From positions 13,259 to 77,258 of the forward strand of contig JBBACM010000001.1 of assembly GCA_041657045.1 (NCBI GenBank): a stretch of DNA of 64,000 nt, in the 5' to 3' direction. The notes under the pieces were generated by a model. That model made no database searches and had not been told where the DNA came from. It saw only the letters and a program-made list of their open reading frames with translations. Positions 25,348 through 42,067 of the stretch are shown one piece after another (positions within the stretch are counted from its first letter, which is position 1; the number at the start of each line of letters is the position of its first letter). A program made the translations under genes and the position numbers. Source of the DNA: Minisyncoccota bacterium (lineage in GTDB: Bacteria > Patescibacteriota > Minisyncoccia > Minisyncoccales > Minisyncoccaceae).

Positions 25348-26190
25348 ATGGGTGCATACGGATATAATAAACGGGATATGATTAGATATAAACGAGACGA
25401 AAACAGTCAACAGCCGAGACTCAAAAAAAGCCTTGGACAGAACCTCTTAAAGGATAAAAACCAGATTAGAAAAATCATGGAATTTTCCGGTATCGGTAAG
25501 AAAGATACCATTTTGGAGATAGGGCCGGGAACCGGAGCTTTAACGTTAGAAATGGCCCCAAAAGTCAAAAAGGTTGTTTGTATCGAAAAAGATGAAGGAA
25601 TGGTTTTATCCCTAAAGAACACCATAAAAGAAAAAGGAATTAAAAATGTCGACATTATTAATGAAGATATTCTTTCTTTTTTCAAAAAAGAAAAGCTTGA
25701 TGTCCCAAAGCTTAAAAAATATAAAGTTGTTGCTAATATCCCTTACTATCTGACTTCTTTTCTGATTAGGAATCTTTTGGAAATAAAAAACTTGCCAGAA
25801 GATATCTTTTTAATTATTCAAAAGGAGGTAGGGGAGAGAATCTGCTCCAAGCCAGGAGATATGTCTATACTTTCGGTTGCCGTTCAATATTATGCATCGC
25901 CCAAGATATTATTCGTTATTCCTCGAGGCTGTTTTGTCCCGTCGCCAAAAGTAGACAGTGTTTTGATAAGAATAACCCCAAAAGGAACTGCTAAAAATGA
26001 AAAATTCTTCAAGCTGGTTAGGGCTGGTTTTGCTCACCCTCGAAAACAGTTGATCGGCAACCTCAATAAAGAATTAAAAATAGATAGAGAATTTATTAAA
26101 AAATGGCTCCTTGATAATAATCTGAAGCCAGGAGAGAGAGCTGAGGTTTTATCTTTAGAGCAATGGAAAAATTTATCTTCTTTTTTATAA
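25348..26190 (+). CDS. rsmA: 16S rRNA (adenine1518/1519-N6) dimethyltransferase RsmA/KsgA
   Basis: SLGQNLL..., the SAM-binding EIGPGTGALT motif, and the NIPY motif. Confidence 0.85.
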   Translation: MGAYGYNKRDMIRYKRDENSQQPRLKKSLGQNLLKDKNQIRKIMEFSGIGKKDTILEIGPGTGALTLEMAPKVKKVVCIEKDEGMVLSLKNTIKEKGIKNVDIINEDILSFFKKEKLDVPKLKKYKVVANIPYYLTSFLIRNLLEIKNLPEDIFLIIQKEVGERICSKPGDMSILSVAVQYYASPKILFVIPRGCFVPSPKVDSVLIRITPKGTAKNEKFFKLVRAGFAHPRKQLIGNLNKELKIDREFIKKWLLDNNLKPGERAEVLSLEQWKNLSSFL

Positions 26191-26210: not shown

Positions 26211-27251
26211 CTATTCTTCTCTGTATAGAGAAAAAGTCATATATGAAAAGGGCTTAATCGGACTTTTTTCACTTGCATTATAGATGTAGCTATACTTAAT
26301 CGTATTGATACAATTAGAAGCACTTCCAGTAAAAAACTGGCATTGGCCTAACGCATTCTTATCCTTATCCTTAAAAAGAATTGCCGTTCCCGGATTAACC
26401 TCAACAGACAAAACATCTCCGACGAAATCCTTGCAAGAATCTTTAATGTTTGTAAACTCCGACACTGAACTAATCGTACAAACGCTTGTTTTTTCTTCTT
26501 GTTTGCCATATTCATCACTTCTCTTCTTGCAGTTTATATTATTGTACAATTTAACAGCGGGGGAGCCGTCAGCCGTCTCAAAAACGATAATAGAAGAAAG
26601 GGTGTCTTTGCCTATCGGAGGATTATTTTCACCTGCGTTAGAAGCTCCAAGATTATCGCTATTGCTTAAAAGATATGAACAATTTCCTTCCATATCTCCT
26701 TCAGGAAAAAGAACTGCACCGTATCCATAATTTTCCCCGTTGACGAATTCTATCGACTTAACCTTCCTCTCAAAACCCTCATTTATCAAAGAAGCTTTTG
26801 ATGATTTTAAAACCAAGGAATCTCCGTCGTCCTTATAGAGATAAACTCCTGTTGGTTTAACTGTTTCGTATGTTTGGCTTGACTTTGGCTCTTTACTCAA
26901 ATCATCTATTTTTATAATCGCAAGTTCTGGATTTATAGTATTCAATATCATAAAAGAAGCTAAAAGTATGACTGTGCCCAAAAGAGTGTCTTGGATTTTC
27001 TTTTTTGCACCCTCTATTTTGGATGGATCACCTCTTGAATTAACATAATCAATGCCGGCAACTATAATCATTACCGTGGCCACAATCGTTCCGATGGCTA
27101 TGGTTAAATTGAAAAAATAGACGACGAAATCAGATGCGGTTGCATTTTGAGGAATGCCGGCAATAACCGGTATTTTAATTGCGGCATATGCAGGAAAAGA
27201 AACGATTAATCCTGCAACGACCGAAAAAACTATTTTTTTTATTTTATTCAT
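26211..27251 (-). CDS. Pilin-domain fusion protein A (346 aa): signal peptide, VirB2/TrbC-like two-helix module, Cys-containing ectodomain
   Basis: N-terminal module VVYFFNLTIAIG...IIVAGI...RGDPSKIEGAKKKI...LLG...LNTINPEL, shared with the two upstream paralogs and with the 19077 pilin. Confidence 0.55.
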   Translation of the reverse strand: MNKIKKIVFSVVAGLIVSFPAYAAIKIPVIAGIPQNATASDFVVYFFNLTIAIGTIVATVMIIVAGIDYVNSRGDPSKIEGAKKKIQDTLLGTVILLASFMILNTINPELAIIKIDDLSKEPKSSQTYETVKPTGVYLYKDDGDSLVLKSSKASLINEGFERKVKSIEFVNGENYGYGAVLFPEGDMEGNCSYLLSNSDNLGASNAGENNPPIGKDTLSSIIVFETADGSPAVKLYNNINCKKRSDEYGKQEEKTSVCTISSVSEFTNIKDSCKDFVGDVLSVEVNPGTAILFKDKDKNALGQCQFFTGSASNCINTIKYSYIYNASEKSPIKPFSYMTFSLYREE

Positions 27252-27252
27252 T

Positions 27253-28566
27253 TTATCTTTTTTCTACCGGAAACAAAATAAAAGACATCGGCTGGGTTTT
27301 CCCTGGGTCGTAAATCGCGGTCGGTAATTTACTCTGACAAATACCTCCTCCTTCTATAGAATTAATATCGTAATATACGCACTTGCCATTAGCAACGCCT
27401 ACTGCTGCACTGCTTAAAACTACACCGATGGGGCCGCTTATAGAAAGAGACATAATCGCATCGCCCGGATCCAATTTTTCAGTACAAGCTAAATAGCTAT
27501 CGTTATAAATATTATGATGTCCATAGCCCTTCAGGGTGCATTTTTTAACTTCAGCAGATGAATTACTGGTTGATTCAGCGCAGTCTGGAGCAGTATAAAG
27601 GGTAACAACTCCTACGTCCGGCAAATCGGGGACTGGTTGTCTTATAATTATCAAAGAAGAAAGTGTATTATTTTTAATAGGCGTGGGATAGTATCCACCA
27701 ACCCCGCTATTCATGTTAGGAACATTTTGAGCGAGGAAAGAACATGAACCGCTATAATTCGGATCGGTAAATACGATTGCTTGATAATTTATTTTTTCCT
27801 TGCTCTGGTCAGGATTTAATATCTTTATTGAACTAGTTGAATTATCAAAAGACTTTTCGGATAGATTATAAATACCGTCCTCCGTGTAAAGAGGGAAAGG
27901 CTTTGTGTTAATAGTATAATTTAATCCGTCATAAAGATATAGTCCGGCTTTTTTCCATAGGAAAAAGATTGATTTTGCTCCGGATATTTCTCCGCTGGTA
28001 CATCCAGCTTCGCAAGAAAACTCTTGCCGTGTCCCCGTAAAACCCTCTTCGGAATAAGTATAAACTGCCAAAAGAGAATCTGGTTGAAAGTTCCACTCAA
28101 GAGTACCTTGGATATTATATCCTATTTTTGACATCGTGTCGGTAATACAGGCCTGGCTTATTTCATTGCTACCCTCAAGCGGTATCCTCGTCACAATAAT
28201 GCCCTGAGAACATTTCAATTGAGTTATTTTAATGGTCTCCAATTCTGGATTAATTGTATTTAAAACGACATAAGAGCCGATAAGAACTGCTACTCCTAAA
28301 AGAGTATTTTTAATCTTGCTTTTAGCCGACTCTATTTTGCTTGGATTGCCCTCGGCGGTCATCCATTCTATTCCTGCCATTATCACAATAACAATGGCGA
28401 TAAAAGACCCGAAGGCAACAATCAGGTTGAAAAAATAAACAACAAATCCTGCGGCGGTTGCATCCTTCGGAAAACCGGCGAGCAAAGGTATGTCTGCCGC
28501 CATGGCTGGTAGAGCCGTTAATAATATTATTGCTGCAACAACCGATATCTTCGTTTTATTATTCAT
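27253..28566 (-). CDS. Pilin-domain fusion protein B (437 aa), same architecture
   Basis: VVYFFNLIVAFG...IMAGI...EGNPSKIESAKSKIKNTLLG...LNTINPEL, followed by a Cys-containing ~320-aa domain. Confidence 0.55.
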   Translation of the reverse strand: MNNKTKISVVAAIILLTALPAMAADIPLLAGFPKDATAAGFVVYFFNLIVAFGSFIAIVIVIMAGIEWMTAEGNPSKIESAKSKIKNTLLGVAVLIGSYVVLNTINPELETIKITQLKCSQGIIVTRIPLEGSNEISQACITDTMSKIGYNIQGTLEWNFQPDSLLAVYTYSEEGFTGTRQEFSCEAGCTSGEISGAKSIFFLWKKAGLYLYDGLNYTINTKPFPLYTEDGIYNLSEKSFDNSTSSIKILNPDQSKEKINYQAIVFTDPNYSGSCSFLAQNVPNMNSGVGGYYPTPIKNNTLSSLIIIRQPVPDLPDVGVVTLYTAPDCAESTSNSSAEVKKCTLKGYGHHNIYNDSYLACTEKLDPGDAIMSLSISGPIGVVLSSAAVGVANGKCVYYDINSIEGGGICQSKLPTAIYDPGKTQPMSFILFPVEKR

Positions 28567-28578
28567 ATTGATTACATT

Positions 28579-31047
28579 TTACTTACAACAATAATAATTG
28601 TCCATATATTCCTCAACATCCATCTGACATCCTGGATTTGTTCCGTCGCCGACACGATTAATATTCTGAAAACATTTGCTTCTTTGCTCTTTCGTCAAAT
28701 CTAAACTATTATAAGGATAACAATTTTGATATCCTTCATTTTTAGTATTAGGATAGGGAAAATCAGGAAGGATAACTAATTTGTCTAGGGTCACATGATT
28801 AATTCCTTCCAAACAATTAAATATTTGCGTTTGAGATTTATTTTCCTTATAAGACGAACCGTAGCCGGTAATACAAGAGTTCATCTTTCTTCTTGAATCA
28901 AGTAACATTTCTATTAAAACAAACCTATTTTTAATCGTGTTGCCTTCGGTAAGAGAGCTGTTGCATTCGACTTTCTTTTTGTTTTCTATAATTTCTTTAT
29001 TTTCTTCAATGCAAACCTCGTCATCTATGTCGCATATTTTTTCCTTCCTATCTGGTCTCATGTCTTCAGGACAGATAGTGTTAACAAGCTCAATCCCCGC
29101 AGCTGGATCAAATTCTCTGATTTCTTCAAGGCTGTCGACAGAAGATAATGCAAATAATCTTTTTTCTCTTTCTGCCCATCTCTGCAAGGCTCCTGCTTTG
29201 GCTAAATTAGAAATTCTTAAAGTTGCCTCTGCCTCATCTTTTGTGGAGTCATAGCAAGAATCATCTATTTCTCTTACTGCGTATATACTTTTAATTAAAT
29301 CGCAAAAACTCCTGTAGGGGCAAGCCCAATACTGTTCTCGTGGTAAAGGAAAACGAGGCATAGGATCTCCGTGCTCTATACAAAGGTCAGAACATCCAAT
29401 ATATGCACGAGAGTACTCAGGATAAGGATAATCTTCTGCCGCTTCTCCGGGATAACAGGTAGTATAGTAAATGCTCGGGCAAGGGCACGTACTGTTAGAA
29501 TTACATTGCGGACGGACACAGCAATTACTGCTCGCAAGCTTACAATTACTGCCATCGCAATTATTCGGTAATTCAGCGATGCTTAATCCTGAATTATAAA
29601 CTTCTTTAACTTCTTTAATTAAATCTTCTATTCTTTTTACCAATTCTTCTCCATATCGTTCGGTTTCATCGACCGTTTCTCCTATGGGTATGACTCCGGA
29701 ATATTTTTTATCATAGACACTACACGTGTCGTCTTTGCTCGCATCAACGGCTGTCTCTCTTTGTTTTTTATCGTTATATTCTTGACTAAAGTAGAATGTC
29801 GCAGGGTCTCCATCATACAAATATCTTTCTTGGCCGTTCACCATTTTACACATTCTTTCTGCTTCGTTTAAATCATATTTGACGCAAACTTCTATATTAT
29901 TATCATATCCTTTCTGTACACAATAATCATCGCAATATCTGGAAATATCATAATCTTCAAAAGGAGTCGATGCAAGGATAGATGAATTATCTTGATTTTG
30001 AAGGCTATGGAATTCAGCAATACTTAATCTTTCTCCAAACGGCCTTTTAGTGCTAAGTTCTACCTGCTTCAACTTATTTACTTGATTTGTAAAATAATCC
30101 TTAAAGCCGGACAGTCTTTCTGTCCCGTCTTTAAAGGTAACCATATTTGGATATTTAGGAGCATCTTCTTTTATCCATCCTTTTTCGTAGCAAATCTTTT
30201 CGGGATCGCTTCCGTCCATCAATTGCTTTATCTCTTCTCTTTTACAGTCTATTTGCTTTCTGTTGGGACAAGGATCGTAAGGATACTGTTCCAGCTCCGG
30301 TTCTCCTACAAGATTATTTCCAGGAGCCTCTGGACATCCCGTGTGTGAATGACCGCAAAGATTACAGTATGATTCCCCGCAAGTAGGACAAACACAAGTA
30401 CCTGTTGTCATTCCTATTCTTCCTAAAGGATTAGGAGGGAAGGGAGCGGTATAAACTCTAGAACATTCGCATTCCTTCATTAAAACATCTAATTCTTTTA
30501 TTAATCGGCTAAGTTCGACTTCGGCTTTTTTCCTGAGAGCTTCTTCGAGGTCCTTCATGCAATAAAAAATATCCCTATCGAGAATAATATCTTTTTCGTT
30601 TATTTGTCCGTCACTATTTTTATCAATAATATTTCCGTCTTCATTGTATTCGTAACATTCAAGTGCATTTTTGGTTGAAGAATTTCCGGATAGAATACTT
30701 TCTACCAATGTTCCTATTGGCAATTCTTGAAATGTTATTGTCTCTTTTACCTCTTTTTTTACTTCGGGAGTTAGAATGGGAATGTCTACATGAACTCCAA
30801 CCAGAGAAACATTTTTAAGAGCGACTAAATCAGGATTAATTGTTGTTAGAAGAACGTATGAAACAAGAAGAACAGCCAGCCCAAGCAGGGCACTAATTAT
30901 TTTCTTCTTTGCTTCCTGTTTAGCTGAAGGATTTCCAGATGAGCTCAAGATATTTATTCCGCTATAGGCAATAACGATAAAAGCGAGGACGGCTCCCATT
31001 GCCACACCGAGATTGAAAATATATATAATGTAATCGGCAAATGTCAT
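28579..31047 (-). CDS. Pilin-domain fusion protein C (822 aa): VirB2/TrbC-like module plus a very Cys-rich ~740-aa ectodomain. It has no signal peptide of its own.
   Basis: IIYIFNLGVAMG...IAYSGI...SGNPSAKQEAKKKI...LLG...LTTINPDL, followed by CxxC-rich repeats. Confidence 0.55.
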   Translation of the reverse strand: MTFADYIIYIFNLGVAMGAVLAFIVIAYSGINILSSSGNPSAKQEAKKKIISALLGLAVLLVSYVLLTTINPDLVALKNVSLVGVHVDIPILTPEVKKEVKETITFQELPIGTLVESILSGNSSTKNALECYEYNEDGNIIDKNSDGQINEKDIILDRDIFYCMKDLEEALRKKAEVELSRLIKELDVLMKECECSRVYTAPFPPNPLGRIGMTTGTCVCPTCGESYCNLCGHSHTGCPEAPGNNLVGEPELEQYPYDPCPNRKQIDCKREEIKQLMDGSDPEKICYEKGWIKEDAPKYPNMVTFKDGTERLSGFKDYFTNQVNKLKQVELSTKRPFGERLSIAEFHSLQNQDNSSILASTPFEDYDISRYCDDYCVQKGYDNNIEVCVKYDLNEAERMCKMVNGQERYLYDGDPATFYFSQEYNDKKQRETAVDASKDDTCSVYDKKYSGVIPIGETVDETERYGEELVKRIEDLIKEVKEVYNSGLSIAELPNNCDGSNCKLASSNCCVRPQCNSNSTCPCPSIYYTTCYPGEAAEDYPYPEYSRAYIGCSDLCIEHGDPMPRFPLPREQYWACPYRSFCDLIKSIYAVREIDDSCYDSTKDEAEATLRISNLAKAGALQRWAEREKRLFALSSVDSLEEIREFDPAAGIELVNTICPEDMRPDRKEKICDIDDEVCIEENKEIIENKKKVECNSSLTEGNTIKNRFVLIEMLLDSRRKMNSCITGYGSSYKENKSQTQIFNCLEGINHVTLDKLVILPDFPYPNTKNEGYQNCYPYNSLDLTKEQRSKCFQNINRVGDGTNPGCQMDVEEYMDNYYCCK

Positions 31048-31479: not shown

Positions 31480-33429
31480 ATGAAAATAACAAATTTTTAT
31501 AAAATACTATTAATAGTTGCAGTGGCATTTATTATATTCCCGGCAGCTAACACGTACGCAGCTGATAATGTTGCTGTAATAGCAAACCCTGGATCTTGCG
31601 ATCTTCTTCTGCACCCTCTCGAATGTGTTTCAAGCGGAATAATAAACACTATTATTAATATCGCAGGAATTTTAGCGCCCGCCGCATTAAGGATAGGAGA
31701 ATATTTCCTTAACGCTGCCATTAGCGGTGATGTTTTAGGGGCTGGCTTCACTCCGGACAGCAACGAATATATCGCTACTGGATGGGGAATAGTCAGAAAT
31801 TTGGCCAATGCGGCGCTGGTAATAGGATTAGTTGTTATAGCTGTAGGTATAATTTTAGGATATCAAGAGAATCAAGCTAAAAAAATTCTACTTAATTTTA
31901 TAATTATCGCACTCTTAATTAACTTTACTCCGGTAATCTGCGGCTTTATTATAGATGGCGCAAACATACTTACAAAATCGATGATGACGGGAGGAATAGA
32001 CGATAGTTATTCAAAATCCATATCAAATCTATTCGTTATAATAGGGAATATGAAGGGTGGTTGGATTGATCAGCTTGCTCTCACGATAGTAGTAACATTT
32101 TTTTCATTGTTCGCAACAGTCATATATCTTTTATACGCCCTTCTTTTTTTCGGAAGAATTGTTATTCTTTGGATATTGGTCATTGTTTCTCCAATAGCCT
32201 TTGCCACAAAAGTATTTCCTCAATCAAAATACATAAGGAACTTTTTCCCGAGCGTAACTTATTGGGATGACTGGTGGGAAAGCTTTATCCAATGGTGTGT
32301 TATAGGAATTCCGGCAGGAATGTCGATATACCTTTCAAATACGATGATTGCAAAAATAGCAAGCACATCTAATTCTACAGCAGCAACCGAAGCAAATATA
32401 TTTGGAATATTAATCGGGTATTCGATTCCATTCATCTTCCTGCTTGCCGGATTCTTTATCTCTATTTCTTCAGGCGGAAAAGTTGGAACATTTGTGGGTG
32501 GAGTAGCAACTGGTGCATGGGCCGTTTCAGGAGGAAGGGCGGCAAATTGGGGTAGAGAAAAAATAAAAGCAGGCGGGGAATGGGTAGAGGGAAGAACTGC
32601 TGCTACCGGATCTTATATAAAAGAAGGTGCAGCGGGAATTGCTGGTGTTATAGCAATGGATAAAACAGATCAACCAAGACCACTGTCTGTATTTAATAAA
32701 GAAGATAGAGAAGCAGGAAGACAAGCAATATCGGGATGGAAAAAAAGAGTCGTTCAAGACACTCCTCTTAAATATTTAACCAACCCTCCAGCCTTAGAAA
32801 AAGACAAGGAGGCTGCTATGGAAAATTACAACAAAAATTGGAATCGTTATAATCAAAACGATAGAGATAAAATTGAAAAAATGCTTATCGATAAAGACAC
32901 TTCTTTGTTCTTGAAAGGAGGTATTGATAAAGATAAAACTCCCGAAGAAAATTCTAGAGAATACCAGAGAAGATTGGCTTCTGTTGGGCTACACGGGGGA
33001 GAAAAAACAAAATTTGAAGCTTATCTCCACGCCTCCGGAAATACTCAATTTGCCGGTATGGGAGGAATACAAGCGGTAAATGAATGGGCAACGAAAAATA
33101 AAATTGATGCTCCTAAAAAACTAAGATCAATGAGCGCAAAAGACGCTAGAGAAAAAATAGGTGCTGATGCTATAAGACAAAATCCAGAAATTCTTCGAAA
33201 TATGGGAGAAAAAGCAGCATTTAATATCTTACAGCAAGGATCAGTAGAGCAAAGAAAGGCGATTAAAGAAAAAACTATTGGTAGAGACAATGCGTTATTT
33301 ACAAAATACATGCAAGATCAGCTGAATATATCAACCGACAGGACATTAACCGAAGACCAAAGAGAAGAGGCAGAGATGAACTATAATAGATGTTATAAAA
33401 TAGCAGAAGAAGTACATATTAATACTTAA
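31480..33429 (+). CDS. VirB6/TrbL-like polytopic membrane protein (signal peptide, about 7 TM helices, Trp-rich loop, hydrophilic C-terminal ~300 aa)
   Basis: Topology and locus context. The N-terminal ADNVAVIANPGSCDLL...GIINTIINIAG segment echoes the pilin leader region. Confidence 0.45.
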   Translation: MKITNFYKILLIVAVAFIIFPAANTYAADNVAVIANPGSCDLLLHPLECVSSGIINTIINIAGILAPAALRIGEYFLNAAISGDVLGAGFTPDSNEYIATGWGIVRNLANAALVIGLVVIAVGIILGYQENQAKKILLNFIIIALLINFTPVICGFIIDGANILTKSMMTGGIDDSYSKSISNLFVIIGNMKGGWIDQLALTIVVTFFSLFATVIYLLYALLFFGRIVILWILVIVSPIAFATKVFPQSKYIRNFFPSVTYWDDWWESFIQWCVIGIPAGMSIYLSNTMIAKIASTSNSTAATEANIFGILIGYSIPFIFLLAGFFISISSGGKVGTFVGGVATGAWAVSGGRAANWGREKIKAGGEWVEGRTAATGSYIKEGAAGIAGVIAMDKTDQPRPLSVFNKEDREAGRQAISGWKKRVVQDTPLKYLTNPPALEKDKEAAMENYNKNWNRYNQNDRDKIEKMLIDKDTSLFLKGGIDKDKTPEENSREYQRRLASVGLHGGEKTKFEAYLHASGNTQFAGMGGIQAVNEWATKNKIDAPKKLRSMSAKDAREKIGADAIRQNPEILRNMGEKAAFNILQQGSVEQRKAIKEKTIGRDNALFTKYMQDQLNISTDRTLTEDQREEAEMNYNRCYKIAEEVHINT

Positions 33430-33927: not shown

Positions 33928-35331
33928 TCATTCATCATTTTTTGGTTTGAATGGTATCCCAGCTTTCTTAAGAGCTTCTCTTGTTTTGTCGGTAATATTT
34001 TTTTTATTACTTTCACCGTCTTCCACAGAAGCTTTTTCGTTTTCTTTCTTTTGGATAGGACTATTGTTAAACGTCTTTTGAAATACTGCGGCAGCGCTCA
34101 AAAGTTCGTTCCCTCCTGTTCCTTTTCCCTCGGTGAAAATTCTAACTCCAGTCCCTTGTCTTATGGCCATGCCGTCCAAGACATCTCTTCTGCATTTATT
34201 GTATATAGGGCCGTAAATCCTTTTGAATTCTTCTGGATTTTTTATTAATGAAGCAAACTCTTCTGGAGTAGTCGCTGTTCTTCTTTGGAATAAAGCATCG
34301 GTCGCTGACATTTCTGTCACTAGCCGTTCCTGATTCATCTGCGCCTGAATGGCGACAGCTTTCTTCTCGAATTCTTGCCTTATTGGCTCATTGGCCGCAT
34401 CGATGATTTCCTTTGGGACGGTCAGCTTAGATATTTGTATTTTTATAATATATATTCCGTACTTTTCTAAACATATTCGGATGGTAGACTTTCCTTTATC
34501 ATCTCCATATTTTTTCTGTTCTTCAAATTTTTTATAAAAATGCATTGCTAATTCTTCATCTTCTTTCTGGAGATCGTTATAGTCTGAATTCCTTATTTCC
34601 TCAAATATTACATTATATACTTCTGATATAAAAGCCTTATACCAATCCTTAATCAAGAATTGAGAAAGAGGCGGGTTAAAAGGCTGTCCCAGTATCCCCA
34701 TATTGAAACTGATTGGAACATTATCCTTACTGTAAATATCTTTTATCTTCAGACCATAATTATATGGAGCAACAACCCAATCCCACATTACATCTTCTTC
34801 CTTTGTAACCTCTTGGGTAGTAGGATTATATTTCTCCCATCTTAAAATACCCTCAAAAGGCTCTTCAAATAATCCAAGGAGTTTAAAAAACCTCAAGTTA
34901 TGGATTACAGGAATTATCCTCGTTGTTTTTATTTTTTCCCCTGGGTCTATCCCAAATTTTTCAGGAATACTTTCTCCCTCCAGGGGAACGATCCATCCTT
35001 TTTCGGTGAGAGTATGACCGTCTAACTGTAGGTCTGATCGAGTATATCCCTCGCCCTCCATAATCAAGAGTAGGTGGCTTTGTCGAACAAAGTAACCAAA
35101 AATTCTTACTGGAGCCAAGATAAAATAAGTCACAAAAAAAATAATTACTGGAAGTAGAATAAATGAAGCTATAGCAGCAACAAATGGATTTTTTAAAAAA
35201 ATCCACAATAAGAAGAAAGCAAGCAAGAATGATACAATAATCATTGTAAATCCTTTTTTCCTGGAATTTCTTCTTTGTTCTTTTGTCTGTTCCAACTTTT
35301 TTTCAATACTTAACCTTTCCATGATTTTCAC
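33928..35331 (-). CDS. Membrane-anchored protein with an SPFH/band-7-like region
   Basis: N-terminal TM helices. C-terminal ...YIIKIQISKLTVPKEIIDAANEPIRQEFEKKAVAIQAQM... resembles the stomatin/HflC helical segment. Confidence 0.4.
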   Translation of the reverse strand: MKIMERLSIEKKLEQTKEQRRNSRKKGFTMIIVSFLLAFFLLWIFLKNPFVAAIASFILLPVIIFFVTYFILAPVRIFGYFVRQSHLLLIMEGEGYTRSDLQLDGHTLTEKGWIVPLEGESIPEKFGIDPGEKIKTTRIIPVIHNLRFFKLLGLFEEPFEGILRWEKYNPTTQEVTKEEDVMWDWVVAPYNYGLKIKDIYSKDNVPISFNMGILGQPFNPPLSQFLIKDWYKAFISEVYNVIFEEIRNSDYNDLQKEDEELAMHFYKKFEEQKKYGDDKGKSTIRICLEKYGIYIIKIQISKLTVPKEIIDAANEPIRQEFEKKAVAIQAQMNQERLVTEMSATDALFQRRTATTPEEFASLIKNPEEFKRIYGPIYNKCRRDVLDGMAIRQGTGVRIFTEGKGTGGNELLSAAAVFQKTFNNSPIQKKENEKASVEDGESNKKNITDKTREALKKAGIPFKPKNDE

Positions 35332-35960: not shown

Positions 35961-36386
35961 ATGCAATACAGAGTTCCTCAATTCATAGAGCACGAGGCTA
36001 AAATATTGGGCCCGCTCAATATAAAGCAAAGTTTGATGGTCGGAGGATCTCTCGCCGCCTGTTTTTTTCTTTACTTTATGGTCGGCCAGACAAACTTTTT
36101 TCTTTTTCTCATAATCGCTGCTTTTATAACCGGAGGAGCCTTGGCCATATCCTTCACAAAAATAGAAGGGCTGGAGCTTCCAACAGTAATTAAGAACTGG
36201 ATAAATTATAACGTTAATCCAAAAATATTCCTCTGGAGAAGAAAGCAATCTCCTGTATACTTATCAACCGAAAGAATAAGAAGAGAGATAGTCGCAAAAG
36301 AAAAAAAATCGCCCCTTAAAGTAAAGCAGGAAGGAAAAATAGGGGATTTAATTAAAAGAATTGATTTTGAAAGAAAAGGAGAATAA
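35961..36386 (+). CDS. VirB3/PrgI-like small membrane protein (two adjacent TM helices)
   Basis: About 25-aa hydrophilic N-terminus, then two hydrophobic helices. Sits immediately upstream of VirB4. Confidence 0.4.
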   Translation: MQYRVPQFIEHEAKILGPLNIKQSLMVGGSLAACFFLYFMVGQTNFFLFLIIAAFITGGALAISFTKIEGLELPTVIKNWINYNVNPKIFLWRRKQSPVYLSTERIRREIVAKEKKSPLKVKQEGKIGDLIKRIDFERKGE

Positions 36387-36388
36387 TT

Positions 36389-37024
36389 ATGGTAAATGTC
36401 CCGTCACAACAATTTATGCCCGTGGAACAAATAAGAGAGGGCGTAATGGTAATGAAAGATAAATCATTAAAATCTGTTCTTTTGGTGTCTTCGCTAAACT
36501 TCGCTTTGAAGTCTGAAGATGAACAGATGGCTATTATTTATCAATTTCAAAACTTCTTAAATTCTCTTGATTTCAGCTGCCAAATTATCGTAAATTCAAG
36601 AAAGGTGAACATAACAGGATATATTGATAAAATAAAAGACTTAGAAAATAAACAAAAGAACGAACTTTTAAAAATACAAACAGCTGAATACAGAACCTTC
36701 ATTGAAGAAATAGTTGCCGGCGGAAGCATCATGAGTAAGAACTTCTACATTGTTGTCCCTTACTTTCCGATGACCGAATTAGCGAACATCACCGGAATCG
36801 GACCAAAAGAAGATAAAAATAATTTGACTGAAAAAAAATTCCAAACAGGCAAATACCAATTATTACAAAGGATGGAATATGTTTCTTTAGGAATAAGAAG
36901 GTGCGGATTAAAATCGGCCGCGCTCGGCTCTGAAGAATTGATTGAATTACTATGGGGGTTGCATCACCCGAAGCAGGCCGAATTGGGATATTACCCTGAT
37001 TTGCCTCCGGAAGTTATAATGTAA
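36389..37024 (+). CDS. VirB4/TrbE N-terminal domain, encoded as a separate ORF
   Basis: The EQIREGVMVMKDKSLKSVLLVSSLNF...SEDE... pattern is typical of the VirB4 N-terminus. Combined length with the next ORF is about 800 aa. Confidence 0.45.
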   Translation: MVNVPSQQFMPVEQIREGVMVMKDKSLKSVLLVSSLNFALKSEDEQMAIIYQFQNFLNSLDFSCQIIVNSRKVNITGYIDKIKDLENKQKNELLKIQTAEYRTFIEEIVAGGSIMSKNFYIVVPYFPMTELANITGIGPKEDKNNLTEKKFQTGKYQLLQRMEYVSLGIRRCGLKSAALGSEELIELLWGLHHPKQAELGYYPDLPPEVIM

Positions 37025-37028
37025 AAAT

Positions 37029-38804
37029 ATGAGCTTATTCGGAAAAAAACCAAAACAAGAAAAATTCTTAGAAAAAGAGATGACGACGGCTCTGGATATT
37101 ATCGCACCCGCTTCAATTGAAGTAAACCAGAACTATGTCCAGATGGAAGAAAAATTAGCTAAAACTTACTTTGTTTTTTCCTATCCAAGATATTTAACTA
37201 CCGGTTGGCTTTCTCCGATTATTAATATGGATATTCCCTTAGATATTTCTTTCTTTTTCCATCCGATTGAAACAGGAAGCATTTTAAGACAATTGAGAAA
37301 AAGCGTTACCGAAGTTCAGGCGGAAATTATGGAAAGAGAAGAAAAGGGTCTTATCAGAGACCCTGCCTTGGAAACGGCCTATCAAGACCTGGAAGACTTA
37401 AGAAGTAGACTACAAACAGCTCAGGAAAAAATGTTCAAGTTTGGACTATATATTACGATATATGCGGATAGCGCAAAAGAATTAGAAACAATCGAAACAA
37501 CGTTAAGGTCAATCCTTGAGTCAAGATTAATTTACATTAAACCGGCATTATACCAGCAAAAAGAAGGCTTGATTTCTTCTTTCCCTTATGGAAGCGATTT
37601 GTTGCAAATACACAACACCTTAAACACAACTCCTTTATCGAGTATTTTCCCATTTATTTCTTTTGATTTAAGTTCAAACGAGGGGATACTCTACGGGATA
37701 AACAAACACAACAACTCTTTGGTTCTATTTGACCGTTTCAGCATGGAAAACGCCAATATGGTAATATTTGCCAAGTCTGGCTCCGGTAAATCATATGCGG
37801 TCAAATTAGAGATATTAAGGTCCCTTATGATGGGAACCGAGTGTATAATTCTCGACCCTGAAAACGAATACAAAACATTGTCAGAGGCAGTGGATGGCTC
37901 ATTCTTTAAAATATCTTTGAGCTCGGATAGCCACATCAATCCTTTTGACTTGCCTGAACCGAGAGAAGACGAAACCCCGGAAGATGTTTTAAGATCGAAC
38001 ATAATCAACTTAGTCGGATTGATGAGGATAATGCTTGGAGGATTAAGCCCGGAAGAAGATGCTATTATGGACAGAGCGCTTTCCGAAACATATGCCGCTA
38101 AAGACATTACTGCCAACTCAGACCCGAAGGCCTGGGGCACCAGCGTTCCCATCATGTCTGATCTGGAATCTGTTTTAGACACTATGGATGGAGCAGAGTC
38201 CTTAGTTGAAAGGTTGAGAAAATTCACCAAAGGAACGTTCGCTTCTTTCTTTAATCAAAAGTCAAATATTTCAATGGATAAATCTCTTGTTGTTTTTGGC
38301 ATCAGAGACATGGAAGACGAATTAAGACCTATGGCTATGTTTATAATCATGAGATATATATGGAATACGGCCAGGGCTGAATTGAAAAAAAGAATTCTGG
38401 TAATTGATGAAGCCTGGTGGATGATGAAAACCGACGATGGAGCTTCTTTCTTGTTCGGCATCTGTAAAAGAGCGAGAAAATACTGGCTTGGAGTTACAAC
38501 CATTACCCAGGATGTTTCCGACTTTATGCGTTCCGAATATGGAAAACCTATTATTACAAACTCTTCAATTCAATTACTATTAAAGCAAAGCCCGGCAACG
38601 ATTGATTTAATCCAACAGACGTTTACCTTGACCGAACAAGAAAAATTCCTCCTGCTCGAAACTCCGGTAGGGGAAGGCATTTTCTTCGCTGGACAAAAAC
38701 ACGTTGCTATCAGGATAGTAGCCTCATACACCGAGGACCAGATAATAACTACCAGTCCGGAAGAAATAATGAAAATAAAAAAAGCAAAAGAAAACTTGCT
38801 ATAA
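37029..38804 (+). CDS. VirB4/TraC-family conjugation-type ATPase (C-terminal two thirds)
   Basis: Walker A FAKSGSGKSYA, Walker B ILVIDEAWWMM, and a CagE/TrbE/VirB4-like region (FVFSYPRYLTTGW...). Confidence 0.65.
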   Translation: MSLFGKKPKQEKFLEKEMTTALDIIAPASIEVNQNYVQMEEKLAKTYFVFSYPRYLTTGWLSPIINMDIPLDISFFFHPIETGSILRQLRKSVTEVQAEIMEREEKGLIRDPALETAYQDLEDLRSRLQTAQEKMFKFGLYITIYADSAKELETIETTLRSILESRLIYIKPALYQQKEGLISSFPYGSDLLQIHNTLNTTPLSSIFPFISFDLSSNEGILYGINKHNNSLVLFDRFSMENANMVIFAKSGSGKSYAVKLEILRSLMMGTECIILDPENEYKTLSEAVDGSFFKISLSSDSHINPFDLPEPREDETPEDVLRSNIINLVGLMRIMLGGLSPEEDAIMDRALSETYAAKDITANSDPKAWGTSVPIMSDLESVLDTMDGAESLVERLRKFTKGTFASFFNQKSNISMDKSLVVFGIRDMEDELRPMAMFIIMRYIWNTARAELKKRILVIDEAWWMMKTDDGASFLFGICKRARKYWLGVTTITQDVSDFMRSEYGKPIITNSSIQLLLKQSPATIDLIQQTFTLTEQEKFLLLETPVGEGIFFAGQKHVAIRIVASYTEDQIITTSPEEIMKIKKAKENLL

Positions 38805-38835: not shown

Positions 38836-39306
38836 TTAAATTTTAGGTTTGACAATTACTTTCCTTTCTTCTCCTTCTCCGACGCTTTCGGTCGTCACAT
38901 CTTTTCTGTCCGCCAATTCCATGTGGACTATCCTCCTGTCAAAAGAAGAAGTAAAAGGGAGTTCTTTCTCTCTGCCTGTTCTTGATACTTCATCGGCCAC
39001 ACTCTGGGCTACATCTCTTAAATAATTTTCTTTATTCTTTTTGTAATTATCTATGTCTAAACTTAAATAAAAATCTTTATCAGTTTTCTTCTTTATTACC
39101 TTTCTTAAAAGTAATTGTATATCGGCCAAAACTAATCCCTGTTTTCCGATAAGAGCTTGAGCTTCAACTGTTTTAATGTTTATATCCAATACATCTTCGC
39201 CGTCCCTTTCTTCGGCTTTTCCTTCGACCTCAACCACAAAACCAACTTGAACAAAAAAGTCTTTAATAATTTCTTTAATGTTTTCCAGTTGTTCCTGGTC
39301 AATCAT
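38836..39306 (-). CDS. Jag/KhpB-like RNA-binding protein (KH plus R3H)
   Basis: KH-like N-terminus, R3H-like C-terminus, and position downstream of yidC. Confidence 0.65.
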   Translation of the reverse strand: MIDQEQLENIKEIIKDFFVQVGFVVEVEGKAEERDGEDVLDINIKTVEAQALIGKQGLVLADIQLLLRKVIKKKTDKDFYLSLDIDNYKKNKENYLRDVAQSVADEVSRTGREKELPFTSSFDRRIVHMELADRKDVTTESVGEGEERKVIVKPKI

Positions 39307-40013
39307 ATTCCTTTCTTATTAAATATTTTTCTCTGTTGGAAAATTGTAAAGACTGTTGTTATCAACCAATACAATCCTAAGGCTGCGGGAAGATTGTATA
39401 GAACGAAGAAGGTTATTAGGGGAATAAAGAAAACCATTTGCTTTGTTACCATTTCAGAAACTTGCGAAGCAGTATCCTTTGTGTCTGACTTCGGAGTAGT
39501 CGGTGTCCCAGTTTTAGCTTGGAAGAATTGAGCAACAGCGGTTATTACGGCTAGAATAATATTAGGCTTAGACAAATCTACAGTCAAAAAATATGTATTG
39601 ATGTTTTGAGGAAGAGAAATGAAAGAATAGATAAGGCTGGGGTCGGATATCTTTCCCCCTTCTTTAAATACGTAAAACAAGGCCCAGAGAATCGGTATTT
39701 GAATAAAGAGTAAGAATATTCCCGAAAAAGGATTGAATTTCTTTTCTTTATACAAAGCCATCATTTCTTCGGCCTGCTTTTGTTGATTATCTTTATTTCT
39801 TTTTTGTATTTCTTGAAGTCTTGGCTGTATTTCCGCCATAGCCTTCTGCGACTTTAAAGCCTTATCGTTTAAAGGGTTAGTTAAAAATTTAATTAAAAGT
39901 GTTAAGGCGATTACGGCTATGCCGAAATTATTTGTATAGACATATACCAGCACCAAAAAATTCAGCATCGGCTGATAAAGAATCGTATTGAAGATTAATG
40001 AAAAAATATTCAC
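39303..40013 (-). CDS. yidC: Membrane protein insertase YidC (short form)
   Basis: YidC/Oxa1 conserved TM core; rnpA-yidC-jag order. Confidence 0.8.
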   Translation of the reverse strand: MNIFSLIFNTILYQPMLNFLVLVYVYTNNFGIAVIALTLLIKFLTNPLNDKALKSQKAMAEIQPRLQEIQKRNKDNQQKQAEEMMALYKEKKFNPFSGIFLLFIQIPILWALFYVFKEGGKISDPSLIYSFISLPQNINTYFLTVDLSKPNIILAVITAVAQFFQAKTGTPTTPKSDTKDTASQVSEMVTKQMVFFIPLITFFVLYNLPAALGLYWLITTVFTIFQQRKIFNKKGI

Positions 40014-40019
40014 AATAGT

Positions 40020-40352
40020 TTATTTTATCTTTTCTAAAAGATTGGCGATGTCTTTCTCTATTTCCTCGTAGCCGGCGTCTTTAATGGGGGATAGGGCGAT
40101 AATGATTATTCTCATTCCATCTTTAATCTCTTTTTTTCTTAGTCTGACAATCTCCCTCATTCTTCTTTTCGCTTTGTTTCTAATAACGGCCAGTTTGGAA
40201 ACTTTTTTACTGACCACAAATCCTATCTTTGTCTTCTCATCTTCTTCCTTAGAATACTTTAAAAAAACGTAATTGCCTTTAAGTGTTTTTCCTTCCTTAA
40301 AAACCGCCTCGAATTCTTTCTTTCTTTTTAACCTGTTTTCTTTAGGCAACAT
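40020..40352 (-). CDS. rnpA: RNase P protein component
   Basis: Basic ~110-aa protein (KENRLKRKKEF...) located between rpmH and yidC. Confidence 0.8.
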   Translation of the reverse strand: MLPKENRLKRKKEFEAVFKEGKTLKGNYVFLKYSKEEDEKTKIGFVVSKKVSKLAVIRNKAKRRMREIVRLRKKEIKDGMRIIIIALSPIKDAGYEEIEKDIANLLEKIK

Positions 40353-40359
40353 ACAAAAA

Positions 40360-40494
40360 CTAAACGCTTAATTTGGCTCTACCTTTTCTTCTTCTTTTGG
40401 CCAAAATAGTTTTTCCGCTCTTGGTTTTGCTTCTTTCTAAGAATCCGTGAGCCCTGACTCTTTTCTTTTTTTTCGGTTGATATGTTTGACTCAT
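40360..40494 (-). CDS. rpmH: 50S ribosomal protein L34 (44 aa: [44 protein letters not shown])
   Basis: Manual translation; not in the ORF track because it is below 60 aa. Canonical L34 ending. Confidence 0.85.
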
Positions 40495-40708
40495 ATTGTT
40501 ATTTTTTTATTCTGTTTTATATATAGAACTATATCAAAAAAACAGGCTCTGGTCAATCAATTTTAACACTAAAAATAGGACAATTTTTATTAACCCTTTG
40601 TCCACAAATTATCCACACAGACTATATAAACCATTGATAATACTACTCCTTTTGCTTTCTTGACAATATGTAAGGTATAATAATAGTAATATTATTAAAC
40701 GGGGTATT
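40495..40708. other. Putative oriC part 1: DnaA boxes TTGTCCACA (40598-40606) and TTATCCACA (40609-40617) between rpmH and dnaA
   Basis: Perfect consensus DnaA box and conserved origin synteny. Confidence 0.55.
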
Positions 40709-42067
40709 ATGACTAACGAAGAACTCTGGCAGACAGTATCGTCTCAAATCCAATTAAATATCTCTCCGGCGAATTTCGCCACATGGTTTGCAAACACCAA
40801 AATATCTTCGGTCGAAGATAATGTCGTGACTGTTTCTGTCCCTAACTCTTTTTCAAAAGAATGGATGGAACAGAAATACCATAAAGATATTTTCAAAATA
40901 CTAAAATCTCTGGATGAAAACATTAAAGACATACAATATGTGGTTAATCCCGTTAATATAAAAATTAATGTCGGTGGAAAAAAAGGACTTAAAAAAGAAA
41001 ACTCTATTGAGCAGATGGGATTTTCAGAATTGGAAGTAAGCAAAGAAACAAACCTTAATCCTAAATATACTTTTGATAATTTTATAACCGGACCATTTAA
41101 TGAAATAGCTTACGCCGCTGCGATGGCCGTAGTCGAAGAGCCGGGGAAAAGCTACAACCCCTTATTCATATATGGAGATGTCGGGCTAGGTAAAACTCAT
41201 TTAATCCAGGCCATAGGGAATAAAATAAAAGAAAACGACCCAGATAAAAAAGTTAAATACATCCCAGCCGAAAAACTTATCTCCACCATAGTTAATGCCA
41301 TAAGAGGCCAAAGCGTTGAAGAATTAAAAAAGAATTTACGCAACATTGATGTATTAATAGTTGACGACATTCAATTTCTCGCCGGCAAGGACAAAACTCA
41401 GGAAGAATTTTTCCACACCTTTAATTCTCTTTACCAAAAAAATAAACAAATAATTCTTTCTTCAGATAGACATCCTAATAACATTCCTGCCATAACCGAA
41501 AGATTAAAATCAAGATTCGGCGGGGGGATGATTGCTGATATAAATATCCCTGACTATGAAACTAGAATGGCCATTTTAAAACAAAAGGCTGAAGAAAAAG
41601 GCGTTGTTGTCCCTGCTGATGTTTTAGAGTATATCGCCAATAATATCCAAAAAAATGTAAGAGAGTTGGAGGGAGCTATAAGCCGTTTGATTATATACAA
41701 AAAAACAAATGGAAAAACTGTAACAATCGAAGACGCCAAAAAGCTCTTAAAGAATATCATTGTTTCGCCGGCGAAAGTAACAAATTATAAAAAAATAATT
41801 GAGGCAATTACTGAATTTTACGATATTCCCTTCGGAAACATGTTCTTCAGCTCAAGGAAAAAAGAGTTCGCTAGACCAAGACAATTAGCCATGTTTTTAC
41901 TAAAAAAAGAGTTAAAAATGTCATACTCTGAAATCGGTAGAAAATTCGGAGGAAAAGACCACACGACAGTCATTCACTCTTGTCAGTTAATAGAAAAAGA
42001 AGACGAAGAAAACGAAAAAATACACCAAGAAATAGAATTAATCCTTCAAAGAATATACAGTAAATAG
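40709..42067 (+). CDS. dnaA: Chromosomal replication initiator DnaA
   Basis: AAA+ Walker A GDVGLGKTHL and the C-terminal DNA-binding domain. Confidence 0.95.
   Translation: MTNEELWQTVSSQIQLNISPANFATWFANTKISSVEDNVVTVSVPNSFSKEWMEQKYHKDIFKILKSLDENIKDIQYVVNPVNIKINVGGKKGLKKENSIEQMGFSELEVSKETNLNPKYTFDNFITGPFNEIAYAAAMAVVEEPGKSYNPLFIYGDVGLGKTHLIQAIGNKIKENDPDKKVKYIPAEKLISTIVNAIRGQSVEELKKNLRNIDVLIVDDIQFLAGKDKTQEEFFHTFNSLYQKNKQIILSSDRHPNNIPAITERLKSRFGGGMIADINIPDYETRMAILKQKAEEKGVVVPADVLEYIANNIQKNVRELEGAISRLIIYKKTNGKTVTIEDAKKLLKNIIVSPAKVTNYKKIIEAITEFYDIPFGNMFFSSRKKEFARPRQLAMFLLKKELKMSYSEIGRKFGGKDHTTVIHSCQLIEKEDEENEKIHQEIELILQRIYSK

What the first reader, a model, noticed from the sequence alone, without database searches (positions are those of the whole stretch)
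36389..38804. VirB4 ATPase encoded as two adjacent ORFs (N-terminal domain separate, 4-nt gap, different frame)
The 211-aa and 591-aa products together make about 800 aa, the usual VirB4 length. The first carries the N-terminal VirB4-like segment and the second carries Walker A/B. This is either a natural split VirB4, a programmed frameshift, a sequencing error, or pseudogenisation of the key ATPase.
Basis: partly seen in the sequence, partly recalled or inferred. Interest (0 to 1): 0.55.

Follow-up and report, generated by a model that had tools for sequence, protein, structure and literature searches.

The report
Naturally split VirB4 secretion ATPase
The motor ATPase of this ultra-small bacterium's type IV secretion system is encoded as two adjacent genes, a small N-terminal piece and the ATPase core; the split is conserved across many related genomes and has already been described, so it is real but ordinary.

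Summary
ORF1 (36389-37024, 211 aa) and ORF2 (37029-38804, 591 aa) are 4 nt apart in different frames. Together they match one full-length VirB4: ORF1 matches the first ~120-210 residues and ORF2 the rest, including Walker A and B.

- All 77 related species-level loci (Paceibacterota, Minisyncoccales, Nealsonbacteria and others) that hold both halves are split at the same protein position.
- Those loci have gaps from -4 to 183 nt and use all three relative frames.
- Both halves show low dN with saturated dS.
- In the window, stop codons in both frames leave only a 4-nt interval where an error could fuse the ORFs.

This rules out a sequencing error, a programmed frameshift and a pseudogene.

A sister clade (Ca. 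Colwellbacteria and others) has the same gene fused (~790 aa) at the same oriC-proximal locus. Staphylococcal plasmid pGO1 has the same VirB3-like, TrsD, TrsE order, broken at the same point.

The arrangement is published: Quinonero-Coronel et al. 2025 (PMC12102498) report TrsD homologues, remote relatives of the VirB4 N-terminus, next to virB4 in Patescibacteria. Verdict: real, already known, low interest.

The parts
35961..36386 (+). PrgI-family (VirB3-like) small membrane protein, 141 aa, directly upstream of ORF1
   Evidence: Pfam PrgI E 1.7e-5, 25.7 bits, just under the 27-bit cut-off. It has a hydrophobic hairpin at residues 24-57. It occupies the same position as trsC in pGO1 and as the PrgI genes in L081, L083 and L084.
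36376..36381 (+). Shine-Dalgarno-like AAGGAG, 7 nt upstream of the ORF1 ATG
   Evidence: Read from the sequence. Duplex energy with a generic anti-SD is -9.3 kcal/mol, against a window background of -2.6 +/- 2.9. It is not conserved in relatives.
36389..37024 (+). ORF1: TrsD-like free-standing N-terminal domain of VirB4 (211 aa; Pfam PF26593 TraC-like in the precomputed annotation)
   Evidence: Matches to VirB4 N-terminal profile positions. 38% identity to residues 8-213 of the fused 797-aa P0260, E 8e-43. The top 12 Foldseek PDB hits of the AF2 model (pLDDT 74) are all TrwK/VirB4. 6,593 relatives, with the best 120 all 190-254 aa. No hydrophobic segment.
37025..37028 (.). 4-nt spacer (AAAT) between the ORF1 stop and the ORF2 start
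   Evidence: The same spacer occurs in the closest relatives L001-L006, while other relatives have gaps from -4 to 183 nt.
37029..38804 (+). ORF2: VirB4 core (second N-terminal subdomain plus RecA-like ATPase domain), 591 aa
   Evidence: NCBIfam CD1110 VirB4-like E 6.5e-109, above cut-off, profile positions 180-733 of 752. Pfam P-loop_TraG E 3.5e-27. 57% identity to P0260 residues 232-796. Residues 4-563 align to pGO1 TrsE residues 5-617, E 2e-38.
37770..37793 (+). Walker A motif AKSGSGKS (ORF2 residues 248-255)
   Evidence: Relatives L035, L047, L057 and L075 carry an intein inserted exactly here.
38394..38417 (+). Walker B motif ILVIDEAW (ORF2 residues 456-463)
26211..31047 (-). Three consecutive genes (346, 437 and 822 aa), each with an N-terminal T4SS_pilin domain; the pilin-like part of the same secretion system
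   Evidence: Pfam PF18895 E 2.6e-7, 1.2e-4 and 2.6e-5. NCBIfam Mbov_0395 pilin-like hits. A pilin cluster is reported in Patescibacteria T4SS loci.
31480..33429 (+). 649-aa polytopic membrane protein with no family hit; candidate VirB6-like channel subunit (inference only)
   Evidence: About 6 hydrophobic segments. No Pfam or NCBIfam match.

Best explanation
This is a natural, evolutionarily stable two-gene VirB4 of the Patescibacteria (CPR) type IV secretion system.

ORF1 encodes the first N-terminal subdomain of VirB4 as a separate soluble 211-aa protein, the counterpart of TrsD of the staphylococcal plasmid pGO1. ORF2 encodes the rest: the second N-terminal subdomain plus the Walker A/B ATPase domain.

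Both are translated as independent polypeptides from one operon, in the order PrgI/VirB3-like, ORF1, ORF2. The very short spacer probably allows translational coupling.

By inference from the R388 T4SS structure, ORF1 binds ORF2 non-covalently and rebuilds a VirB4 protomer. In R388 the VirB4 N-terminal domain dimerises protomers and contacts VirB3, VirB8 and the membrane. ORF1 would likewise dock the ATPase ring onto the VirB3-like membrane protein.

Shown here: homology of each piece, colinearity with fused forms, conservation of the split, and purifying selection. Inferred: physical reassembly and the docking role.
For: 1. Each ORF covers a complementary part of VirB4 profiles and of a fused 797-aa homologue: ORF1 6-198 to 8-213, and ORF2 23-588 to 232-796.
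2. The AF2 model of the fused homologue matches full-length TrwK/VirB4 (E 5.8e-27, TMq 0.62). The ORF1 model's best PDB hits are all TrwK/VirB4.
3. All 77 GTDB species loci that hold both halves are split at the same protein position. ORF1 always ends 3-5 residues after the conserved GYYPxLPPE. Gaps run from -4 to 183 nt and relative frames 0/1/2 occur 19/33/25 times.
4. The best 120 database relatives of ORF1 are all 190-254 aa. Of the 150 best 50%-identity representatives, 149 are short (125-443 aa) and one is a fused 797-aa protein.
5. dN is 0.05-0.18 for ORF1 and 0.03-0.11 for ORF2, with dS saturated.
6. pGO1 has the same order, trsC, trsD (227 aa), trsE (672 aa). TrsE residue 5 aligns with ORF2 residue 4, so the break point is the same.
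7. In the fused model, confidence dips at residues 211-230, where the split falls.
8. The literature reports TrsD homologues next to virB4 in Patescibacteria, one of them essential in Ca. Southlakia epibionticum. It also describes the docking role of the VirB4 N-terminal domain.
Against: - No direct evidence that the two polypeptides associate; no multimer prediction or experiment was possible.
- Direct similarity of ORF1 to pGO1 TrsD is weak: hhalign E 0.0029 with probability 10.7%, and NCBIfam TrsD 19.8 bits against a 200-bit cut-off.
- The ORF1-only fold match to TrwK is modest (TMq 0.38-0.48, E ~0.01-0.06).
- Ribosome-binding signals gave no information on how ORF2 is initiated.
Confidence: 0.93

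Rival explanations
1. Sequencing or assembly error: the true gene is one ~800-aa VirB4 and a 1-nt indel created the apparent split.
For: The two ORFs are 4 nt apart in adjacent frames. Fused ~790-aa homologues exist in another Patescibacteria clade. Assembly artefacts can truncate this gene: P0289 and P0385 are cut by 100-N scaffold gaps.
Against: Stops in both frames (37017-19 and 37022-24) leave only a 4-nt interval with no homopolymer where an indel could fuse the ORFs. The identical protein is seen on 4 contigs from 3 sources. All 77 independent related assemblies are split, with different junction sequences. ORF2 starts with a conserved Met-led N-terminus that aligns with pGO1 TrsE residue 5.
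Confidence: 0.01
2. Programmed +1 ribosomal frameshift or stop-codon bypass yields a single fused VirB4 polypeptide.
For: In the window and its closest relatives ORF2 is in the +1 frame, only 4 nt after the stop.
Against: The relative frame is not conserved: frames 0/1/2 occur 19/33/25 times. Gaps reach 183 nt, some junctions are ATGA overlaps, and in-frame cases still carry a stop. No slippery motif is conserved. In the window, P-site AUG cannot re-pair in the +1 frame (UGU). ORF2 has its own ATG in 76 of 77 loci.
Confidence: 0.01
3. Pseudogenisation: the VirB4 gene is broken and decaying.
For: A key ATPase interrupted by a stop codon could look like an early pseudogene.
Against: Both halves are intact and strongly conserved: 61 invariant ORF1 columns across 27 sequences down to 63% identity. 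dN is low while dS is saturated. Walker A and B are intact. The split is phylogenetically broad. The T4SS, including the TrsD homologue, is essential in a cultured relative.
Confidence: 0.01
4. ORF1 descends from the VirB4 N-terminus but now acts as an autonomous accessory or regulatory factor, for example an adaptor present at a different stoichiometry. In this reading it is not a constitutive piece of the VirB4 protomer.
For: Some homologues carry 100-230-aa low-complexity C-terminal tails or a ~40-aa loop insert, which suggests independent evolution of the piece. TrsD homologues in Gracilibacteria are not linked to virB4, and no function is assigned to TrsD. ORF1 evolves faster than ORF2: 38% against 57% identity to P0260.
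Against: Tight adjacency, mostly 1-7 nt gaps, in 77 of 77 loci. Fused forms sit at the orthologous locus. The conserved C-terminal GYYPxLPPE motif at the break fits an obligate partner interface.
Confidence: 0.08

Closest known systems
TrsD + VirB4 pair of the Patescibacteria T4SS (Quinonero-Coronel et al., Microb Genom 2025, PMC12102498)
   Same: Same phylum and same arrangement: a small TrsD-like protein adjacent to virB4, together with PrgI/VirB3-like and VirB2-like pilin genes. Same chromosomal neighbourhood near dnaA, rnpA, rpmH and ksgA in Paceibacteria (window).
   Different: Nothing substantive; the window is one more instance. The parts of the paper read here do not mention the fused sister clade or the varied junctions found here.
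TrsD/TrsE (TraD/TraE) of staphylococcal conjugative plasmid pGO1 (MPF_FATA class)
   Same: Same gene order: VirB3-like trsC, trsD (227 aa), trsE (672 aa VirB4-like). The break point is equivalent, with ORF2 residue 4 aligned to TrsE residue 5, E 2e-38.
   Different: ORF1 is only weakly similar to TrsD (hhalign E 0.0029; NCBIfam 19.8 bits against a 200-bit cut-off). pGO1 is a conjugative plasmid with a relaxase and a coupling protein. This locus is chromosomal, close to oriC, and has large pilin-domain proteins nearby.
Single-chain VirB4 (R388 TrwK; CD1110-family VirB4-like ATPases; fused Patescibacteria VirB4 of Ca. Colwellbacteria)
   Same: Same domains in the same order. Fused CPR homologues are 38% (N-terminal part) and 57% (core) identical to the window ORFs and lie at the syntenic locus. 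The fold matches TrwK over its full length.
   Different: One polypeptide there and two here. The split falls in a low-confidence linker of the fused model.

Membership tests
VirB4/TraC-type T4SS ATPase (NCBIfam NF045971, CD1110 family; Pfam P-loop_TraG) | Score above the curated family cut-off | tested here: met
   ORF2 scores 365.2 bits against a 325-bit cut-off, E 6.5e-109. P-loop_TraG scores 95.5 bits against 25.8.
VirB4/TraC-type T4SS ATPase (NCBIfam NF045971, CD1110 family; Pfam P-loop_TraG) | Intact Walker A and Walker B motifs | tested here: met
   AKSGSGKS at residues 248-255 and ILVIDEAW at 456-463 of ORF2.
VirB4/TraC-type T4SS ATPase (NCBIfam NF045971, CD1110 family; Pfam P-loop_TraG) | N-terminal domain and ATPase domain in one polypeptide covering the whole profile | tested here: not met
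   ORF2 covers only profile positions 180-733 of 752. Positions 4-118 are supplied by the separate ORF1. This is the split architecture.
VirB4/TraC-type T4SS ATPase (NCBIfam NF045971, CD1110 family; Pfam P-loop_TraG) | Genomic association with other T4SS components (VirB3-like, pilin, VirB6-like) | tested here: met
   A PrgI-like gene lies directly upstream. Three T4SS_pilin-domain genes lie at 26211-31047. The VirB6 candidate is inferred only.
VirB4/TraC-type T4SS ATPase (NCBIfam NF045971, CD1110 family; Pfam P-loop_TraG) | ATP hydrolysis and hexamer formation | not testable with these tools
   Needs biochemistry.
TrsD/TraD family (NCBIfam NF041427; CONJScan TrsD) | Sequence score above the NCBIfam cut-off | tested here: not met
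   19.8 bits against a 200-bit cut-off, E 5.6e-4. hhalign of the ORF1 family profile against pGO1 TrsD gives E 0.0029, probability 10.7%, colinear over 165 columns. The relationship is remote and ORF1 is not a member of the narrow NCBIfam family. The 2025 paper assigns such proteins to TrsD with CONJScan and profile-profile searches.
TrsD/TraD family (NCBIfam NF041427; CONJScan TrsD) | ~200-230-aa protein encoded between a VirB3-like gene and the VirB4-like ATPase gene | tested here: met
   The window order is PrgI-like, ORF1, ORF2. The pGO1 order is trsC, trsD, trsE.
TrsD/TraD family (NCBIfam NF041427; CONJScan TrsD) | Homology to the N-terminal portion of VirB4 | tested here: met
Pfam PF26593 (TraC-like domain) | Match to the Pfam model | tested here: inconclusive
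   The precomputed annotation lists PF26593.2 for the identical protein P0001 and for all listed relatives. The local Pfam scan returned no PF26593 hit for ORF1, even at E<=1.
Programmed ribosomal frameshift gene | Conserved frame relationship and slippery site; no independent start for the downstream frame | tested here: not met
   Frames 0/1/2 occur 19/33/25 times and gaps run from -4 to 183 nt. ORF2 starts with ATG in 76 of 77 loci.

The most novel reading that the evidence does not exclude
The linker after the first VirB4 N-terminal subdomain may be a recurrent site of gene fission and fusion. It is split in Minisyncoccales, Nealsonbacteria and relatives and in pGO1. It is fused in Ca. Colwellbacteria and in CD1110-type elements. 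If so, releasing the subdomain as a free protein could let these epibionts regulate how, or at what stoichiometry, the essential T4SS ATPase docks on its VirB3-like membrane anchor. This goes beyond what the 2025 survey, as far as it was read here, says about TrsD ('no function assigned').
Probability: 0.2. Interest if true: 0.4.

Novelty: already known. Interest (0 to 1): 0.15.

Why it matters
It matters mainly for annotation. ORF1 is deposited as 'hypothetical protein' and should be read as the detached N-terminal subdomain of VirB4 (TrsD-like). The downstream 591-aa gene should not be flagged as truncated or as a pseudogene.

Biologically, the Patescibacteria T4SS is essential for the epibiotic lifestyle in the one system tested. 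Knowing that its motor has two chains is useful for structural and genetic work, for instance in the cultured Minisyncoccus archaeiphilus, which has the same split (L048). It does not open a new question.

Tried and rejected
- A sequence search of the ORF1 family profile against PDB chains found no VirB4, only chance-level hits. The relationship needed fold comparison and the fused homologue.
- Shine-Dalgarno analysis of ORF1 and ORF2 leaders in 33 loci was uninformative. Mean duplex energies (-1.9 and -0.9) were no better than the window background (-2.6), so nothing can be said about coupling versus independent initiation.
- dN/dS ratios could not be given as numbers for several pairs because dS is saturated or undefined. 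Only 'low dN, saturated dS' is claimed.
- Two 600-aa proteins inside the fused clade (P0289, P0385) looked like independent recent splits. They are artefacts of 100-N scaffold gaps inside the N-terminal coding region.
- The literature search with 'split', 'N-terminal domain' and 'two genes' returned nothing specific.
- NCBIfam and Pfam gave no hits for the neighbouring 520-, 649-, 151-, 111- and 159-aa proteins.
- I did not determine whether the fused or the split state is ancestral.

Full report
**Observation**

The window has ORF1 at 36389..37024 (+, 211 aa) and ORF2 at 37029..38804 (+, 591 aa). They are separated by four bases (AAAT), and ORF2 is in the +1 frame relative to ORF1.

ORF2's frame is closed by TAA at 37017-19 and ORF1 ends with TAA at 37022-24. 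Only an artefact within 37019-37022 could join them. That interval is not a homopolymer. The A-run that follows begins inside the stop codon, so a change in its length cannot remove the stop.

ORF1 has a strong AAGGAG 7 nt before its ATG.

**What the two ORFs are**

NCBIfam places the two ORFs on complementary parts of VirB4 models.
- ORF1 residues 9-122 match positions 4-118 of 752 in the CD1110 VirB4-like model (E 6.8e-6).
- ORF1 residues 7-124 match positions 105-234 of 894 in VirB4_plasma (E 1.3e-9).
- ORF1 also gives a weak hit to the TrsD/TraD model (E 5.6e-4).
- ORF2 residues 14-560 match positions 180-733 of 752 in CD1110 (E 6.5e-109, above the cut-off).

Pfam finds P-loop_TraG, AAA_10 and DUF87 in ORF2. 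Walker A (AKSGSGKS, residues 248-255) and Walker B (ILVIDEAW, 456-463) are intact. Neither ORF has a hydrophobic segment.

The gene directly upstream (35961..36386) is PrgI-family, that is VirB3-like. Three genes at 26211-31047 on the minus strand carry T4SS_pilin domains. Downstream lie jag, yidC, rnpA and rpmH on the minus strand and dnaA on the plus strand, so the locus is next to the replication origin.

**Is the split real and conserved?**

ORF1 has 6,593 relatives at 90% clustering. The best 120 reach down to 58% identity, are all 190-254 aa, and are mostly labelled Candidatus Paceibacterota. The identical protein is deposited as a hypothetical protein.

An alignment of 27 of these relatives shows 61 invariant columns and a conserved C-terminal GYYPxLPPE, with the stop 3-5 residues later.

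A scan of GTDB species representatives confirmed 348 loci, and the best 80 were kept. They come from Paceibacterota, Minisyncoccales, Nealsonbacteria, Wildermuthbacteria and Gribaldobacteria. They include the cultured Minisyncoccus archaeiphilus and Ca. Microsyncoccus archaeolyticus.

In all 77 loci that contain both halves, the halves are separate ORFs.
- Spacers range from a 4-nt ATGA overlap to 183 nt.
- Relative frames 0, 1 and 2 occur 19, 33 and 25 times.
- In-frame cases still have the stop codon.
- ORF2 starts with ATG in 76 of 77 loci.

Against close relatives, dN is 0.05-0.18 for ORF1 and 0.03-0.11 for ORF2, while dS is saturated. These results exclude a sequencing error, a programmed frameshift and pseudogenisation.

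**Fused relatives**

An exhaustive search of 50%-identity representatives gave 1,883 hits at E<=1e-3. Of the best 150, 149 are short (125-443 aa) and one, P0260, is a 797-aa protein.

P0260 aligns colinearly with both window ORFs:
- ORF1 6-198 to P0260 8-213, 38% identity, E 8e-43.
- ORF2 23-588 to P0260 232-796, 57% identity.

P0260 lies in a syntenic locus: PrgI, VirB4, one unassigned gene, jag, yidC, rnpA, a 34-aa ORF, dnaA, dnaN.

A search with P0260 shows a large fused clade. Of the best 120 hits, 118 are 775-807 aa, many from Ca. Colwellbacteria. The two 600-aa exceptions are caused by 100-N scaffold gaps.

The AF2 model of P0260 (pLDDT 70.7) matches full-length TrwK/VirB4 of R388 (E 5.8e-27, TMq 0.62). 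Its confidence dips at residues 211-230, exactly where the split forms are cut.

The ORF1 model (pLDDT 74) has the same order of secondary-structure elements as the P0260 N-terminus. Its 12 best PDB hits are all TrwK/VirB4 chains, with probability 0.85-0.99, although TM-scores are modest at 0.38-0.48.

**Comparison with what is known**

pGO1 of Staphylococcus aureus carries trsC (VirB3-like), trsD (227 aa) and trsE (672 aa, VirB4-like) in the same order. ORF2 residues 4-563 align to TrsE residues 5-617 (E 2e-38), so the break point is equivalent. Direct similarity between ORF1 and TrsD is weak but colinear.

Quinonero-Coronel et al. 2025 (PMC12102498) already report the following.
[quoted passage not shown] - The TrsD homologue of Ca. 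Southlakia epibionticum is essential.
- In Paceibacteria the system lies near dnaA, dnaN, rnpA, rpmH and ksgA.

The window matches that description, including a ksgA-like RrnaAD gene at 25348-26190. A 2025 review summarises the role of the VirB4 N-terminal domain in R388: it dimerises protomers, embeds in the membrane and contacts VirB3 and VirB8.

**Mechanism**

Shown here: two separately encoded, conserved polypeptides that together equal one VirB4.

Inferred: they reassemble non-covalently. ORF1 would then mediate docking of the ATPase ring to the PrgI/VirB3-like membrane protein, as the covalently attached subdomain does in R388.

The short spacers suggest translational coupling, but the Shine-Dalgarno analysis gave no information on this.

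A minority reading is that ORF1 has become an autonomous accessory factor. Variable C-terminal tails and loop inserts in some homologues hint at this. So does the unlinked TrsD of Gracilibacteria.

**Verdict**

The feature is already described in the literature for this phylum and for pGO1-type plasmids. Interest is low.

Noticed in passing
L035 1608-5399; L047 1682-5035; L057 1273-5037; L075 1515-5321: ORF2 homologues of 1117-1268 aa carry a ~520-670-aa insertion directly after the GK of the Walker A motif. The insertion starts with Ser and ends in HN, and is followed by the Ser of GKS. This is the signature of an intein in the VirB4 P-loop.
   Followed up: partly
window 26211-31047 (-): Three consecutive large proteins (346, 437 and 822 aa) each begin with a T4SS_pilin domain and hydrophobic N-terminal segments. 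They are much longer than classical VirB2 pilins. The function of the long C-terminal parts is unknown.
   Followed up: partly
window 31480-33429 (+): A 649-aa protein with about six hydrophobic segments and no Pfam or NCBIfam hit lies between the pilin-like genes and the VirB4 genes. It is a possible divergent VirB6-like channel subunit.
   Followed up: partly
L081 544-2937 (P0260) and proteins P0271-P0389: A large sister clade (Ca. Colwellbacteria and other Parcubacteria) has the same VirB4 as a single 775-807-aa chain at the syntenic oriC-proximal locus. Split and fused forms therefore coexist within Patescibacteria. Which state is ancestral was not resolved.
   Followed up: partly
L083 ~1200-1680; L084 ~1170-2053: Two apparent 600-aa 'split' VirB4 proteins inside the fused clade (P0289, P0385) are artefacts. 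A run of 100 N (a scaffold gap) interrupts the N-terminal coding region.
   Followed up: yes
proteins P0153, P0161, P0166 (406-443 aa); P0111, P0112, P0118, P0120; L048 (Minisyncoccus archaeiphilus): Some TrsD-like homologues carry long low-complexity Pro/Gln/Ala-rich C-terminal tails. Others, including the one in the cultured Minisyncoccus, have a ~40-aa insert in the loop that corresponds to ORF1 residues ~128-147.
   Followed up: no
window 33928-35331 (-): A 467-aa SPFH/Band 7 domain membrane protein (Pfam E 2e-6) lies between the T4SS pilin/membrane genes and the PrgI-VirB4 operon. Whether it is linked to the secretion system is unknown.
   Followed up: no
window 38836-42067: The locus abuts the replication-origin gene set: jag/EloR, yidC, rnpA and rpmH (44-aa L34 in the 40353-40709 interval) on the minus strand, and dnaA on the plus strand.
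   Followed up: partly
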